The notes below the pieces were generated by a model. The model made no database searches and was not told where the DNA came from. It saw nothing but the letters and a program-made list of their open reading frames with translations. The translations under genes and the position numbers were made by a program. From Eledone cirrhosa (lineage: Eukaryota): a stretch of 64,000 nucleotides of DNA. The stretch's first letter is position 1, and each line of letters begins with the position of its first letter. Positions 26,088-63,656 of this stretch are shown here, one piece after another. The DNA lies in NCBI GenBank assembly GCA_964016885.1, contig OZ024741.1, positions 89,156,001-89,220,000 on the forward strand. The letters are read 5' to 3'.

Positions 26088-27075
<988 letters not shown>

Positions 27076-51431: not shown

Positions 51432-53375
51432 ATGAAGGCTGCGTTCAACGATAATGGTGGTGGAGAGTCGGTAAGACTACATAGCTCACAGTCAACATCG
51501 TCTTCTTCCCTTTCCTTCTCAATAGATACTATAGAGATGGAAAGACGAAATGAAAATGTAAAAACAAATTCATATCCAAGCAACACAAATGACACCAAAC
51601 AGTTCAATGACAACAAAAATAACAGCAACACCAATAATGATGATAAAAACAACAATGATAACAACAACAAAGAAAAAAATAAAGACAACACCAATAACAC
51701 CAGCATCAAAGACAACAACAACACTAACACCAATACCAAGGAAAATACGAATAATATCAACATTGGTGACAACAAGAATAACAACAACAATAACAACAAT
51801 AATGACAACACCACCAACACGGATAATTCCACAAAGAAACCAAAATCTCCTTTGCACAGACAGCTCAGAAAAAGGAGGAACTGACATATCTCGACATAAC
51901 AAATGCCGAACAACTTTTAAAAGACGCTAGGAGATATGTCACTTTCGAAAAAAAATGGTGCTTTCAGCATCAATTCTTCGGTAGAAATTCGCAAGGAAAC
52001 TGCTCTCAAAACGATAGTTTTTAGGACAGTTTCCAATTCTACCCGAAAACCAGTCCAATTGTCACAGAAAGAAATTGAACTGGTTTTCAAAAATTCAATG
52101 AATGATATTGCATTCATTCAAAGAAGCAAACTTTTTGGGAGTATTTCGGTACTCATGAAGGATCAATTGACGGCCCAAAATTACTCTGTGTCGCCAATTG
52201 TATCCAACCTGTACACCTTTTTCCCTACATACATGGGAAAAAGGACACAAAAGATCAAAATCCCGAGTGTCACACCAAAGGTGAACATATGGTGGATACT
52301 GTGCGGCTTCATCAATTTTGATGAAGACAGAATACTGTCAGTAGGAAAGTCCCCCAGAGATGTATTCAATGGGACTAGCATTGAAGTTCTGGTGCAACTG
52401 AGCTCAGAGCGAATAGCTATGATTCCACAACGTGTACTCCTGGACGGACTCACCTACATAAACGTTTCGGTTGAGGGTAGGCGGCCTTCATGTTACCATT
52501 GCTTTAGCAGGGGTCACCTGAAGGCTTCCTGTCCTAAATTAATGAGTCAAAAAAAGGCTCTTCTGCCGACACCCATCAAAACAACACAACCACCAACACC
52601 ACCACCACAACAACAACACTAACACACAAAAATAACCACAACAAACACAGTCCCAGCCAACCCCACTCCACCTAAAACCACTGCAAAATCACATGCAGAC
52701 ACAACAGCTCCCCAAGACATACCCCTCCCCAATCACACAGACGATACAACAGATGAGGCTATCTCGCCATCACCCAGTGAAGACGAGGGAGAACCCCATC
52801 GCTTGAAAAGAAAGAAAAGACATCACAAAAGCAAAAAACGAGCAAACACTACCACAAACATACAACCACCAACACAAACAACAAAAACATCACAAACAAA
52901 ACCCCCACCTCCTGAAAACAAAATATCTACAACAAAACGAAAGCACACACAAGAACTACAGACAAAAACAAACACAACACAAGAAAATTACCCTTACACT
53001 TACATAAACACTGAAAACAAAACACTAATGGAGACCATCACGAACGACCCTTCGGTGAAAACCGAAGGGAAAACTTTCGCCCACTCTATTAAAAATAACA
53101 AAAAACTGAACCTAAAACTGATTAGGGTCCCTATACAAACTTATAGGTCCCTAAAAGAAACATTTGAGAAGGATGTGGGGAATTCCTGCGTGAAACCACT
53201 TAACCGCGTCCTTCTCAAATGTCTCCCCACCCCAGACACCCCTATCCCACCAGATCCCACCCCACCAAACATCTCCGTCCCCACCCCGCCGGAAACCACC
53301 ACCCATCCAGACAACCCCTCCAACACCCACATGGAAATCGTGCGGCCTGGTCCCCAGGAGACGAAGGGTGAGTGA
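51432..53375 (+). pseudogene. LINE ORF1p, disrupted
   Basis: CYHCFSRGHLKASCP knuckle; FFPTYMGKRTQKIKI shared with 40381; breaks near 51880-51930 and a stop at 52620. Confidence 0.9.
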
Positions 53376-57627: not shown

Positions 57628-57707
<80 letters not shown>

Positions 57708-58683
57708 GAGTTTATGTTGGTTATATTTCAGTGACAGCCATCTTTGGCTGTGACCTCTTCAGGCAGTTTGAATTAGTATGGTATAGACAAGTACATATGT
57801 TATTTAGGTGTATGATATTGTCAATACTCTGATATGCCCAGTTCCTTGTTGGGTTGTTAATTCACTGGGGAACTGGAGTCATATGAATTCAAACAAACGA
57901 ATTTTCGTGTCACAGGTCCCCTTCTCCTCTCATTGGTCAGTTATTAGAACATTCCTCATTCTAAGTGTTGTTATTGTTGGAGTTAGCTTAAAAATTGATA
58001 AAATGGTAGAAGGGACAAGGTGTTAAAGGAACAAAATAACAAAAAAAGTGTCAAACTTCCCATTGTTCAGTTCTGAGAGCATTCCTCAGTCAGAAGTCTA
58101 TAGAATTCTTTCTGGGGTGAGGCTCCCTGTAGTGTTTTTGCCTGCTATTGTTCAGTACATTTGACCTCCACCATTATTTTGGTACTGTTGTTGTTGTAGT
58201 GGTCAGCTTATATCTTGCTGCTGCTAACAATGTAGAAGTATCCAGTTTGTGTATTTTCTTCATCCCTCCCGCCACCATCGTAGTGGTGGTGGTGGTGGGG
58301 GGGGTTCTTTCATGTATATGAAGAAATATAAGGCAATAAATGAAGAAAACAGAAAATAAATAAATAATATAATAAAATAAAATAATTAATATAATTTGTG
58401 TAATTTGAAAATAAATAAATAAATAGAGAATAAAGAATAAAGAGTAAATGAGAGATTGGTGAAAAAGTAATGATAATGTATATGGAGAAGTGAGAAATAA
58501 TGTAGGATAAAGTGTGTGTGTGTGTGCTATAACCAATCTCAAGGTCAGAATATGTTGGATAGATTGGTATGATACAAGATGTTAAGATGAGATATTCAAT
58601 GTGTTTGTGTTATAATCTATCTCAACTTAAAATAAATATAAGGTGATACAGTGAAGAGGGCAGAAAACAAATAACAAATTAAT

Positions 58684-58877
58684 TGTTTCTACTTTAGGCA
58701 CAAGGCCAGCAAATTACCCAGTGCATTACTGGTACTTTATTTTATCGACCCCGTAAGGATGAAAGGCAAAGTCAACCTCGGCGGGATTTGAACTCAGATC
58801 ATAAAGGGACGTAACTATGCTGGAAAGCATGGCGTCCGACCCTCTACCGATACTGCCAATCCACCACCCTAATAAAT
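58684..58877 (-). mobile_element. Meta-like tRNA SINE with 18-bp TSD, in one arm of the Penelope inverted repeat
   Basis: TSD AACAAATAACAAATTAAT at 58666-58683 and 58878-58895. Empty site at ~62615-62632. Confidence 0.92.
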
Positions 58878-59214
58878 AACAAATAACAAATTAATAAAGA
58901 GAAATCAAGATTTAAGATTGGAACTTGAAAGTCAGAAATCTGGTAAATTAAAAGTGTTTGTGTTATAGATGTTGGCCAAATTATTATGGCTGTGTCCGAT
59001 TCTATCTCTAGGCTATCATGGTGTCTGCTCCGCCTGGGTTGTTCCCTGTGGCTTGAGGGGAGTTCACAACCTAGGGTGTTGTTATTGCCCATATAGCTTG
59101 AGGGAGGTCTGGCCGAGAGGTGTTTTCATGTTCTGTAGAAGTCCCTATAGCTTGAGGGGAGTTCACATCTTCTTGTGTTGCTACTGTCCATATATTTTGA
59201 GAAAGGTCCCGGCT

Positions 59215-61862
59215 CTAAGGTGTCTGCATGTCCCATGTCCTGAAGAAGTCGGTTCTGAGGTTTATCAGGCCGCTTCCACCTCTTAGTATCTCGAGGGTCT
59301 CGTTCAGGCATAGTTTGCATATGCAAGATCCCCCTTTATCGGGTGGTACTTTCCTGATTATGTACCAGGCCAGAGAGTATGGGGTCCTGTCCAGCTTAAG
59401 CTTCCAGATCAGGTCGGAGAGAGCTGTGCTTTTCCTTTTCGCCTCCTTCTTGAATGAATGGCGATGGTTGTACCAGCGGTCCTTAAAGCTCGTTGATGTG
59501 GCTCCTATGTAGAGGTGTTCGGAGTTGGGGGTTTTAACCCTACAACCGTACACTAAGTTCTTCTTGAGACATTCATTACCAAGGGGGCATGATTCGGGGT
59601 TTCTGCAGTTGCAGAGGGTGGTCGGCCTCTGCGTGCCTAGATTAGGGTTCTCATTATGTGTTACATGTTGGTCTTCCCCCATGCTCGGTGGGGGGTCCTT
59701 GGGTCTGTTTGTGTTTCTTGGGTGGGCTCTGGGTCCCCCCTTCCCTCCTTTCACATGGTTCTGCTGAGTGTTTGTATTGCCATCTTCTGGTTGTGTGTGG
59801 TTTTTAAGCCTACTTCTGTTGATGCTAGCTATGTGTTAGGCCAAATTTCTCGTGGTGGAATACGAAAGCTTCACAGTGTGTCTGTTGAAGATCCTGTGGT
59901 ATCTGTGGTCCCTCGGGAAGCATTTGTCAAGTGCTCCAAAGAATAATCGGGCCAAGCTTTTCTTTAGGGCCGCTGAGTAGGGTGGGTTGTACCACGTGAT
60001 TTGTCGGTGTCTTCTCCTATATGTGTGGGTTGGGGGCTTCGTGATTTGTTGGAGATTTGTTGGGTTGCTGGTGGTTTACGCACTGTTGCTTCCCTTTTGG
60101 GCTCTATACTTTTTGTTATCTTCGCGGCCCGGATTTGTGGGGTGGTTGTTGTCCGCCCCAGGAGATCCATCGTGGGGTGGTCGCCCGTTCCCCCCCACCC
60201 ACGTTTCCTGCGGTTGGGGTTGTCCATCCTGGGGTAGTTAGCGTCACGCCTGAGACTGCTACTCATATTGTGCTCCATCTCGTGGTCAAGCGCACTAGTC
60301 CCCACCACCCGTGTGGTGGTGTCTGGTACATGGTGCCTATTTGATTCTGTTCTGCCTGTATTGTTAGGGTTCGCCCTCCCCCCTCTGGCAACGCGGTTGT
60401 GGGTGTCTGTTGGGCTATCCACCTCCCGGCTTTTCGGACTATATGTTATATTTTTTCCATGTGCCGCCTTTAGAGCTACGTTGTAATATTCCGCGTGGTT
60501 GTTGAATATTTCCTTACTTGCGGACAGGCTGGAGATCCTGTCCGAGACACTCTTCACCACTGCCTTGGTTATGGATCTAGGGTGGTTTGATTTGGCGTTA
60601 ACATATACGAGTTTCTCGTTGGGCTTGTGGTAGGGGTAGTATTGCTCGGTGTTCAGGTTTAGGGTGGTGTCTAGGAAGTTAACTACCTTCCTATTTGGGT
60701 CTATTTCTATGCTGAGCCCCTGGTTCTTAAAGAAATGGCGAATACGCCTCCTCATACCCTCCAACATATTGGTGCTGTGGTCATGTACTGTGAATAGAGC
60801 ATCGTCACGATATAATCCGCCGCCCAGGCAGGGGATTTCATCTTTTATCTGCTTCAGCAGGTAGAGCCCAACCAGGTCCGTTACCTGCGCTGAGTCGCTG
60901 GAGCCCATCGTGATGTCAAAGTTATTTGGCCAATCACTCCTGGTCCAAAGGTCTCCATCGAAGCGGATTAAGGTCTTTCTTGCGGCGTGGATGATGCTCA
61001 CCTCCTCTCGGGTTAGGTCCGTATTGGACATCGCTAAAAATAGGGCCTTATTAAGTACTATGAGTGAGATTGAGGAGTAGTAGCTTGCGATGTCCAGTTG
61101 TATAAAGCTGGTCCTACTTTTCTCATGCAGTATTTTGAACCATTCTATTACTTCTCTCGTGCATGACCATTGCTGTAATTTGGTTTTCTTCCGAAGCTTG
61201 GGCAAAATCCTATCCAGTATTCTTTTACTGACGATCCCTAGGTCAGATCTGGAGGGGGCTATTAGTCTGACAGGGAGGTCGGACTCAAAGTTTGACTTGT
61301 GGTCTTTAAGGGTAATCCGCGGCTCCCTTGGTTGGTATGGGGCCGTCCTGTCCTCTATGCCGATTCTGGATATAATCCTGTAAGCGGTGGCATTGATCTC
61401 ATCCAGGGTAAATCCAGGTGTTTTTTTGTAGCACTTCCTCAGTTCCCTGAGAATTAGCTTATTGTACAGTTCAGTGTTCATGTTGTAGAGGTTGTTTGTT
61501 TTGTCAGCATGGACAAGTATTCCAGTTGTCCCTTTAAGTACTATAATCCGGTTTCTCAGGTGTCTGAGGTACTCCTGACTTCTGGTTGGGTTTCCGGAGA
61601 ATTTGAGGTTGGATATGATGTTAATCATCTCGTTTTCAAACTCCTCCATTAGTCAGTTGTGGGGGGGATTCCTCCTTGATCGAAAAAGGTACTCCATGTT
61701 TTCTGTGTTTGTAGTTTTCTGCGTTCCTCTTTCGAAGTGGAACGCCTTCCATCTCATCCTACGGATGAGGGAGTCCGTACTCTTGATGAGATCACTGGTG
61801 TATTCTCGTTTATCAGGTAGGGGGATGTCCTTCGGTGACGCTAAGGTTGCCAGTTTATCCAT
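59215..61862 (-). pseudogene. Penelope RT + GIY-YIG endonuclease (in-frame stop at 61653, frameshift before WYNPP)
   Basis: RRMRWKAF, ADKTNN, QLDIASYYSSI, MGSSDSAQVTDL, LYRDDAL, YHKP, WYNPPY; CNCRNPESCPLGNEC; LVY..YIG..FKDRW.NH; C.LC..E. Confidence 0.92.
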
Positions 61863-63532
61863 AGTGACTTAGGTCCGCTACTGTTTGAAGCGCTCAACCC
61901 GTGTGGGAGCTAGATAGATTTTGAGTTTATGTTGGCTGTATACCAACACCTCAATATGCAGGCTGGAGCACTCGACGAAGTGCGCAGGTTGGTTTGGTTA
62001 CTCCGGAGTAGTGTAAAATAAAGTTAAATAAAAGTCAAATGATTAAAATTTAGCTTCGTTTATTACTGCTAAAAGGAAAAGCACAGCTCTCTCCGACCTG
62101 ATCTGGAAGCTTAAGCTGGACAGGACCCCATACTCTCTGGCCTGGTACATAATCAGGAAAGTACCACCCGATAAAGGGGGATCTTGCATATGCAAACTAT
62201 GCCTGAACGAGACCCTCGAGATACTAAGAGGTGGAAGCGGCCTGATAAACCTCAGAACCGACTTCTTCGGGACATGGGACATGCAGACACCTTAGAGCCG
62301 GGACCTTTCTCAAAATATATGGACAGTAGCAACACAAGAAGATGTGAACTCCCCTCAAGCTATAGGGACTTCTACAGAACATGAAAACACCTCTCGGCCA
62401 GACCTCCCTCAAGCTATATGGGCAATAACAACACCCTAGGTTGTGAACTCCCCTCAAGCCACAGGGAACAACCCAGGCGGAGCAGACACCATGATAGCCT
62501 AGAGATAGAATCGGACACAGCCATAATAATTTGGCCAACATCTATAACACAAACACTTTTAATTTACCAGATTTCTGACTTTCAAGTTCCAATCTTAAAT
62601 CTTGATTTCTCTTTATTAATTTGTTATTTGTTTTCTGCCCTCTTCACTGTATCACCTTATATTTATTTTAAGTTGAGATAGATTATAACACAAACACATT
62701 GAATATCTCATCTTAACATCTTGTATCATACCAATCTATCCAACATATTCTGACCTTGAGATTGGTTATAGCACACACACACACACTTTATCCTACATTA
62801 TTTCTCACTTCTCCATATACATTATCATTACTTTTTCACCAATCTCTCATTTACTCTTTATTCTTTATTCTCTATTTATTTATTTATTTTCAAATTACAC
62901 AAATTATATTAATTATTTTATTTTATTATATTATTTATTTATTTTCTGTTTTCTTCATTTATTGCCTTATATTTCTTCATATACATGAAAGACCCCCCCC
63001 CCCCCCACCACCACCACTACGATGGTGGCGGGAGGGATGAAGAAAATACACAAACTGGATACTTCTACATTGTTAGCAGCAGCAAGATATAAGCTGACCA
63101 CTACAACAACAACAGTACCAAAATAATGGTGGAGGTCAAATGTACTGAACAATAGCAGGCAAAAACACTACAGGGAGCCTCACCCCAGAAAGAATTCTAT
63201 AGACTTCTGACTGAGGAATGCTCTCAGAACTGAACAATGGGAAGTTTGACACTTTTTTTGTTATTTTGTTCCTTTAACACCTTGTCCCTTCTACCATTTT
63301 ATCAATTTTTAAGCTAACTCCAACAATAACAACACTTAGAATGAGGAATGTTCTAATAACTGACCAATGAGAAGAGAAGGGGACCTGTGACACGAAAATT
63401 CGTTTGTTTGAATTCATATGACTCCAGTTCCCCAGTGAATTAACAACCCAACAAGGAACTGGGCATATCAGAGTATTGACAATATCATACACCTAAATAA
63501 CATATGTACTTGTCTATACCATACTAATTCAA

Positions 63533-63587
63533 ACTGCCTGAAGAGGTCACAGCCAAAGATGGCTGTCACTGAAATATATATAGCAGT
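63533..63587 (+). ncRNA. Minimal type I hammerhead ribozyme in Penelope pLTR (truncated antisense copy 57723-57768)
   Basis: Identical to 26747-26801. Confidence 0.92.
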
Positions 63588-63656
63588 AATAAACGAAGCT
63601 AAATTTTAATCATTTGACTTTTATTTAACTTTATTTTATATATATATATATATATA

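What the first reader, a model, noticed from the sequence alone, without database searches (positions are those of the whole stretch)
61916..62085. 5' junction of the full-length Penelope element falls at the predicted hammerhead cleavage site
Seen: on the - strand the element's 5' pLTR begins (T)A-GCAGTAATAAACG (62071/62070 downward) and is then joined to an inverted GIY-YIG segment. In the intact ribozyme (63533-63587) cleavage is predicted at ...GAAATATATATA^GCAGT. The cDNA therefore stops within 1-2 nt of the scissile bond. Inference: this is genomic evidence that the transposition template was a ribozyme-processed RNA whose 5' end was made by self-cleavage, for example from a tandem or read-through precursor.
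Basis: partly seen in the sequence, partly recalled or inferred. Interest (0 to 1): 0.8.

Follow-up and report, generated by a model that had tools for sequence, protein, structure and literature searches.

The report
Penelope template: capped, ribozyme mostly uncut
This jumping gene carries a predicted self-cutting RNA motif, but nearly all of its thousands of genomic copies read straight through the predicted cut and their commonest fixed end lies 167 bases upstream at a likely capped RNA start, so the one copy here that ends beside the cut is probably a coincidence.

Summary
The ORF-bearing arm of this Hydra-type Penelope element starts 1-2 nt upstream of the predicted hammerhead cut. But only this copy, of 60 ORF-bearing loci, starts within 3 nt of the cut; the others scatter from -1888 to +151 (chance of one such hit 0.4-0.6). 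An estimated 97-99% of 5,647 arms read through the cut. The dominant fixed 5' end is at -167: 13 of 30 sampled arms stop there, often with an extra untemplated G (G 178, A 50), as expected for a capped transcript with an uncut ribozyme. A small class (12 of 43 short head-to-head insertions near the cut) has both arms ending at the scissile bond, so cut RNA is probably copied occasionally. Two further regularities: in 153 of 154 typed insertions one arm ends at +56 and the other near +154; and ORF-bearing arms never stop at -167 (0 of 22), which points to an end-less (circular or jumped) template for full-length copies. No RNA data were available. The scan noted a similar fold-back pattern in another genome.

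The parts
57701..62071 (-). Main (ORF-bearing) arm of the Penelope-like insertion, from -2 through the ORF and 3' UTR to the 'long' 3' end (about +154), followed by CT/TA repeat
61916..62071 (-). 5' pseudo-LTR remnant, -2 to +154; lacks the ribozyme 5' part and the -167 start
62068..62072 (.). Head-to-head junction between the two arms; GC.A microhomology; main arm ends at -1 or -2, partner at about -1499
59215..61862 (-). Broken RT plus C-terminal GIY-YIG ORF with RWK, DKT and CxCx5C motifs (Hydra type); in-frame stops and a frameshift
   Evidence: (GIY-YIG E=5.6e-4, below the Pfam cut-off)
58684..58877 (.). Interspersed repeat (SINE-like by eye) in the 3' UTR of the main arm only; absent from the inverted arm, so likely inserted later
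57722..57767 (-). 3' ribozyme of the main arm, broken by a deletion from about -4 to +133 that removes the cut site
62071..63638 (+). Inverted 5'-truncated arm (about -1499 to +56), 99-100% identical to the main arm, ending at the 'short' 3' site in TA repeat
63533..63587 (+). Type I hammerhead motif, intact; predicted cut 63582/63583; G10.1-U11.1 wobble in this subfamily
63416..63416 (+). Position -167: the family's dominant fixed 5' end, inferred capped transcription start (same site at 57884 on the - strand arm)
26423..26950 (.). Short head-to-head insertion of the same family: one arm -154 to +56, the other -165 to about +154, both with the intact ribozyme

Best explanation
The junction is an ordinary head-to-head join between two truncated copies of a Hydra-type Penelope-like retrotransposon that probably falls beside the predicted hammerhead cut by chance, and the family's usual template is likely a capped, uncut RNA starting 167 bases upstream of the cut. 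Mechanism: (1) The element inserts in TA repeats (shown); both DNA strands are nicked and each primes a cDNA (inferred; both-strand cutting and extension is shown in vitro for a lizard PLE, PMC11167929). (2) One cDNA starts at +56 and the other near +154 (shown as paired ends in 153 of 154 loci; that these are priming sites on one RNA-protein complex is inferred). (3) Both cDNAs run toward the RNA 5' end through the ribozyme (shown) and stop by drop-off or at the capped end at -167, where a G is often added (end and G shown; cap inferred). (4) The two cDNA ends, or a cDNA and host DNA, are joined by microhomology or with short templated inserts (shown). (5) In about 1% of arms the RNA had been cut and both cDNAs end at +1 (inferred). 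(6) Full-length copies come from a template with no end at -167 or +1, most likely a ribozyme-made circle or a homologous jump across the terminal repeat (inferred; not separated here).
For: ORF-bearing junctions scattered; 1 of 60 within 3 nt of the cut, chance 0.40-0.57. 5,647 arms hold +1..+24 exactly; 230 differ at -10; 9 of the first 30 of those are true junctions, giving about 1-3% of arms ending in -9..+1. Head-to-head loci by zone: 403 at about -150..-180, 114 at -50..-90, 43 around the cut (anchors differ in length). 42 of 49 fetched loci of the first zone have an arm at -166..-169; where arms do not overlap the end is -167 and the next base is G in 6 of 8 (reference C). Genome-wide, G precedes -167 in 178 of 1,753 arms and A in 50; the G is not explained by the partner arm in 13 of 30, the A in 5-7 of 20. 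13 of the first 30 arms reaching -167 stop at -167..-170, but 0 of 32 inverted arms of ORF-bearing loci do, so it is a template end and not an intrinsic pause. Pairing short/long: 42 of 43, 40 of 40, 34 of 34, 37 of 37 typed. Published: ribozyme mutants still insert in vitro and no RNA-seq read began at the cut (PMC11167929); the Drosophila Penelope transcript initiates inside the upstream pLTR (PMC2377424).
Against: The window junction keeps one private base at -1, the same pattern as 7 of the 20 arm ends in the cut-site cluster. Drop-off is slightly higher around the cut (0.52 per 100 nt) than in neighbouring zones (0.29-0.35). The -167 end sits in an 8-nt palindrome, so about half of the head-to-head joins there (23 of 49 listed as -169/-169) are ambiguous by several bases and could be favoured by fold-back alone. 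In 17 of 30 G-class arms the G can come from the partner arm. No RNA evidence. The ORF-bearing set was picked by one exact 24-mer and so favours the young subfamily; 5 of its 60 loci are on small unplaced contigs and may duplicate others.
Confidence: 0.7

Rival explanations
1. One reading: the template was cut at its 5' ribozyme but not at its 3' ribozyme, and the long cDNA ran off the cut end and gained one base before joining.
For: End at -1 or -2. A cut-site class exists: 12 of 43 short head-to-head loci have both arms in +4..-1, with 13 arms exactly at +1 and 7 at -1, mostly blunt or with templated inserts; background windows average 1.3 loci, maximum 5.4; negative-binomial p about 6e-5.
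Against: One of 60 is what chance gives. The extra base matches the uncut precursor. The partner arm reads through an intact 3' ribozyme. Against the single best control window the excess is only p=0.07, and the window of +4..-1 was fitted after seeing the data. A GC self-complementary join at +1/+2 explains some of the class. In a by-eye tally of the first 100 of 158 rows, ends at +1 (7), -1 (6) and -2 (6) were no higher than +5 (9) or -5 (7). The class is not enriched for the subfamily with the canonical G10.1-C11.1 pair (2 of 12 against 9 of 27 typed, linkage read by eye).
Confidence: 0.3
2. The -167 end is not a capped start but a fold-back hotspot made by the palindrome there, or a pause of the reverse transcriptase.
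For: An 8-nt palindrome spans -169..-162 and 23 of 49 loci are perfect fold-backs on it.
Against: Non-palindromic joins, host-joined arms and arms with inserts still end at -167; untemplated G excess; 0 of 32 inverted arms and 0 of 22 main arms of ORF-bearing loci stop there although they cross the same sequence.
Confidence: 0.15
3. For full-length copies only: the template is linear, and the seamless upstream partial unit comes from a homologous jump across the roughly 320-nt terminal repeat, or from read-through of very young tandem donors, with no role for the ribozyme.
For: Upstream partial unit, inverted arm and 3' end differ equally little within a locus (19, 22 and 19 private differences over 3,686 columns in 10 loci; 14 of 510 discordant at segregating sites against 42% between loci). 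This fits a jump as well as a circle. Ribozyme mutants insert normally in vitro (PMC11167929).
Against: A jump at the cap should sometimes fail or leave a G scar: 0 of 22 stops at -167 and C at -168 in 20 of 20 upstream units.
Confidence: 0.45
4. Head-to-head structures arise by self-priming on an antisense template (model proposed in PMC3846280).
For: Palindromic junctions are common.
Against: A fixed sense-strand 5' end with an added G, many non-palindromic joins, and two different fixed 3' ends paired in 153 of 154 loci are expected from two cDNAs on a sense template.
Confidence: 0.07

Closest known systems
Hydra clade of C-terminal EN+ Penelope-like elements (Craig et al. 2021, PMC8557442; section 11 and passages read)
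   Same: RWK, DKT, CxCx5C linker, no CCHH, hammerhead in the pLTR, TA-repeat targets, partial tandem plus inverted 5'-truncated copy, tail at one end
   Different: Unit about 4.1 kb (paper: generally under 3 kb); tail about 100 nt (paper: 30-40 bp for PLEs); the one-short, one-long pairing is near absolute here; no phylogeny run
Poseidon element of Anolis, PAc (Frangieh et al. 2024, PMC11167929; parts 1-2 of 4 read)
   Same: Two internal RT start sites that define the tail, AT-rich targets, both strands cut and extended, uncut RNA as main template
   Different: That paper saw no difference in start site between strands and did not report pairing within one insertion, a capped genomic end, or a class ending at the cut; here the start sites lie upstream of the ATG
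Drosophila virilis Penelope (Schostak et al. 2008, PMC2377424; passages read)
   Same: Transcript starts inside the upstream pLTR; partial tandem flanked by inverted repeats
   Different: Start mapped from RNA there, inferred from genomic junctions here; the paper leaves pLTR regeneration open
PLE hammerheads and the circle proposal (Cervera and de la Pena 2014, PMC4209133; parts 1-2 of 4 read)
   Same: Type I motif with long helix II, short helix I and palindromic loop 3, thought to need a dimer; opposite-strand pairs 100-700 bp apart
   Different: Circularisation was proposed without in vivo evidence; the data here fit it but do not prove it
R2 elements with a 5' HDV-like ribozyme (recalled, not read)
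   Same: Ribozyme at the 5' part of a target-primed retroelement
   Different: In R2 the cut sets the 5' junction of full-length copies; here it does not

Membership tests
EN+ Penelope-like element | Single ORF with RT and C-terminal GIY-YIG | tested here: met
   RT motifs (YRDD) seen in the translation; GIY-YIG E=5.6e-4, below the Pfam cut-off; no Pfam or PDB hit for the RT part
EN+ Penelope-like element | Partial tandem (pLTR) and adjacent inverted 5'-truncated copy | tested here: met
   42 of 60 ORF-bearing loci have an adjacent inverted arm; 35 of 60 extend upstream of the cut
EN+ Penelope-like element | [quoted passage not shown] | tested here: met
   One short and one long end in 153 of 154 typed loci; tail about 100 nt
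Hydra clade | RWK and DKT motifs | tested here: met
   Both in the translation against the definition
Hydra clade | CxCX5C linker, no CCHH, CxxC before the conserved E | tested here: met
   Read by eye from the EN translation; a CxH motif appears only in another frame of this broken copy
Hydra clade | Insertion into (TA)n | tested here: met
Hydra clade | RT phylogeny groups with Hydra elements | not tested
   No reference Hydra proteins were fetched
Type I hammerhead ribozyme | Core CUGANGA, GAAA, UH with stems I and II | tested here: met
   no Rfam match; no covariation, the family being young
Type I hammerhead ribozyme | Self-cleavage at the predicted bond | not testable with these tools
   Indirect only: 12 short insertions end at the bond
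R2-like ribozyme-processed 5' end | 5' junctions of full-length copies fixed at the cut | tested here: not met
   1 of 60 within 3 nt, none at +1 unambiguously

The most novel reading that the evidence does not exclude
The genome records three RNA templates of one Penelope element: a capped uncut RNA (short twin-arm insertions ending at -167 with a cap G), a ribozyme-cut linear RNA (rare twin arms ending at +1), and a ribozyme-cut and re-ligated circle that is copied for more than one round to give every full-length copy with its seamless partial tandem. One complex primes both DNA strands, one at each of two fixed RNA sites. The hammerhead would then exist to make the circle that regenerates the promoter-bearing pseudo-LTR.
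Probability: 0.35. Interest if true: 0.8.

Novelty: new member of a known kind. Interest (0 to 1): 0.55.

Why it matters
How Penelope-like elements regenerate their pseudo-LTR, why their insertions are head-to-head, and what their hammerheads do are described as open in the papers read (PMC2377424, PMC3846280, PMC8557442, PMC11167929). This young family of thousands of copies gives countable answers: a likely capped sense template, a near-absolute pairing of two priming sites, a rare class ending at the scissile bond, and full-length copies that ignore both possible RNA ends. Each gives an exact nucleotide to test.

Tried and rejected
Rfam found no hammerhead at gathering or E-value thresholds; the motif was judged by core and fold. 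Pfam and PDB gave nothing for the RT part. The 30 best BLAST copies were set aside as biased toward junctions at or upstream of the query start and replaced by an ORF-side anchor. Sequencing runs: no RNA holder listed; no reads were laid. The subfamily test (canonical G-C pair enriched among cut-site insertions) was negative. Short deletions spanning the cut occur in one arm only in the two loci where both arms could be read, so they are not template scars. Covariation in the ribozyme stems was not detectable, and a per-column scan matched no rows. An intron reading of the window's 3' deletion was rejected because its ends do not match GT-AG splicing. Comparing upstream and downstream repeats could not separate circle from jump. 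Literature searches (listings only, except the papers named) showed no report of a cap G at PLE junctions or of strict pairing of the two ends; subscription papers and all supplements were not seen.

Full report
Numbering: +1 is the first base 3' of the predicted scissile bond and -1 the base 5' of it. 'Arm' means one reverse-transcribed segment.

Anatomy in the window. A Penelope-like element lies on the - strand from 62071 to about 57701, and an inverted, 5'-truncated copy of its 3' part lies on the + strand from 62071 to 63638; both outer ends sit in TA or CT repeats. The two arms are 99-100% identical, against about 3% median difference between loci, so they were copied from the same template. 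The ORF (61862 to 59215) has stops and a frameshift and carries the RWK, DKT and CxCx5C motifs that define the Hydra clade. The hammerhead motif at 63533-63587 has the type I core, a 5-bp stem I, a long stem II and a palindromic TA loop; the cut is predicted between 63582 and 63583. Rfam does not detect it. The main arm's own 3' ribozyme is broken by a deletion from about -4 to +133.

The junction. The main arm begins two bases upstream of +1. The base at -1 cannot come from the partner arm; the base at -2 is shared with it. A cDNA running off a cut RNA would end at +1, so the extra base is either copied from uncut RNA or added without template.

Test 1, ORF-bearing copies. An exact 24-mer at +157..+180, blind to the junction, gave 61 places, or 60 loci, all fetched. 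Their 5' junctions run from -1888 to +151. 29 keep the whole ribozyme upstream, 25 start downstream of the cut, and only the window copy lies within 3 nt; one more, joined to host TA repeat, is ambiguous between -9 and +1. With the density of the other 59, a hit in any 5-nt window has probability 0.40-0.57. 42 of 60 have an adjacent inverted arm, 29 of these with 1-11 nt of overlap.

Test 2, all arms. 5,647 places match +1..+24 exactly; 230 differ at -10. Of the first 30 of these, 9 are true junctions and 21 are loop-length variants, small deletions or point changes (by eye). That gives about 69 arms (34-114), or 1-3% after allowing for chance matches. The rest read through an intact site.

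Test 3, where the ends really pile up. Head-to-head loci number 43 around the cut, 114 at -50..-90 and 403 at about -150..-180 (anchors of 15, 12 and 12 nt, so the comparison is rough). Of the first 49 loci of the last zone, 42 have an arm at -166..-169. 23 are perfect fold-backs on an 8-nt palindrome and are ambiguous, but non-overlapping joins end at -167 and carry G at the next position in 6 of 8 cases, where the reference has C. Genome-wide, 1,753 arms match -167..-142; G precedes them in 178 and A in 50. 29 of the first 30 G cases are true junctions; in 13 the G is not explained by the partner, two of these being host TA repeat plus a single G; for A the figure is 5-7 of 20. Of the first 30 arms that reach -167, 13 stop at -167..-170. 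As a control, 0 of 32 inverted arms of ORF-bearing loci stop there; for them the site is internal to the RNA. So -167 is a template end, not a pause. An added G at a fixed 5' end is what copying of an m7G cap leaves (my knowledge, not a paper read here), and the site resembles an initiator (recalled consensus). This agrees with the Drosophila transcript starting inside the pLTR (PMC2377424, passages) and with uncut RNA being the main substrate in vitro (PMC11167929).

Test 4, a minor class at the cut. All 43 cut-zone loci were read. 13 arms end exactly at +1 and 7 at -1; 12 loci have both arms within +4..-1, ten of them blunt or with inserts. Other 5-nt windows in this zone and in a control zone (40 of the first 50 listed of 114, picked for the two young subfamilies) average 1.3 loci, maximum 5.4. 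Against this: the window was fitted after seeing the data; compared with the best control window p=0.07; GC self-complementarity at +1/+2 helps; a by-eye tally of the first 100 of 158 rows shows +1 no higher than +5 or -5; and the canonical-pair subfamily is not enriched. I read it as probable occasional copying of cut RNA, about 1% of arms or less.

Pairing of 3' ends. Arms end either at about +56 or at about +152 to +159. One of each is found in 42 of 43, 40 of 40, 34 of 34 and 37 of 37 typed loci. 12 of the 49 loci of the last set could not be typed, nor 26 of the 60 ORF-bearing loci (no inverted arm, or an end not reached). Independent choice would give half. [quoted passage not shown] The near-absolute pairing implies that one complex uses each site once, one per DNA strand. 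The window copy obeys the rule.

Full-length copies. 22 ORF-bearing arms reach -167 and none stops there (p=0.0002 against 13 of 30); none carries a G scar (20 of 20 C). Their upstream partial unit is as close to the 3' end as the inverted arm is (19, 22 and 19 private differences in 10 loci). Their template therefore had no end at -167 or +1. A ribozyme-cut, re-ligated circle, as proposed in PMC4209133, explains this; so does an efficient homologous jump across the terminal repeat, or read-through of very young tandems. The data do not separate these. An intact ribozyme in the DNA thus does not prove the RNA was never cut, only that it had no free end there.

Verdict. The window junction is probably chance (0.7) rather than a cut end (0.3). 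The element is a new member of a known kind. Its interest lies in the family-wide census, which names exact nucleotides for testing an unresolved replication cycle. No RNA run was available, so cap, cleavage and circle remain inferences. The preprint 10.64898/2026.07.22.740005 (part 1 of 5) and PMC3846280 (passages) were also read; no supplements were opened.

Noticed in passing
L269, L270, L277, L280, L283, L287 (about base 1500-1523 of each): Arms whose 3' end is at -1, joined to TA repeat (6 of the first 30 of 73 places); in two the partner is a 'long' arm. Could be priming at the end of the 5' cleavage fragment, priming on the TA loop, or a later deletion.
   Followed up: partly
window:57721-57722: The main arm's 3' repeat lacks about -4 to +133, so both ends of this arm break near the cut site; absent from the inverted arm.
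   Followed up: partly
window:58684-58877: SINE-like repeat in the 3' UTR of the main arm, with many relatives in the window.
   Followed up: no
window:63708-63903: Small element with 84-nt inverted arms, 94% complementary, 28 nt apart (MITE-like), next to the TA repeat.
   Followed up: no
window:53838-56778: Two long + strand frames that look like a non-LTR retrotransposon RT region; preceded by an A/C-rich low-complexity stretch at about 51600-52900.
   Followed up: no
L063, L079, L103, L113: Internally deleted mini-elements that join the ORF start region to the 3' UTR and still show the paired ends; possible non-autonomous derivatives.
   Followed up: no
L099: The same inverted junction occurs twice in one locus, suggesting a template switch onto the nascent partner arm or a later rearrangement.
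   Followed up: no
window:63570 and loci: Two subfamilies differ at ribozyme position 11.1 (U in the window's, C in the sister; 196 against 17 rows for the commonest stem II forms); loop 3 length varies by TA units.
   Followed up: partly
L249, L252, L259: Recurrent 9-11 nt deletions that remove +1..+8, in one arm only where both arms could be read.
   Followed up: partly
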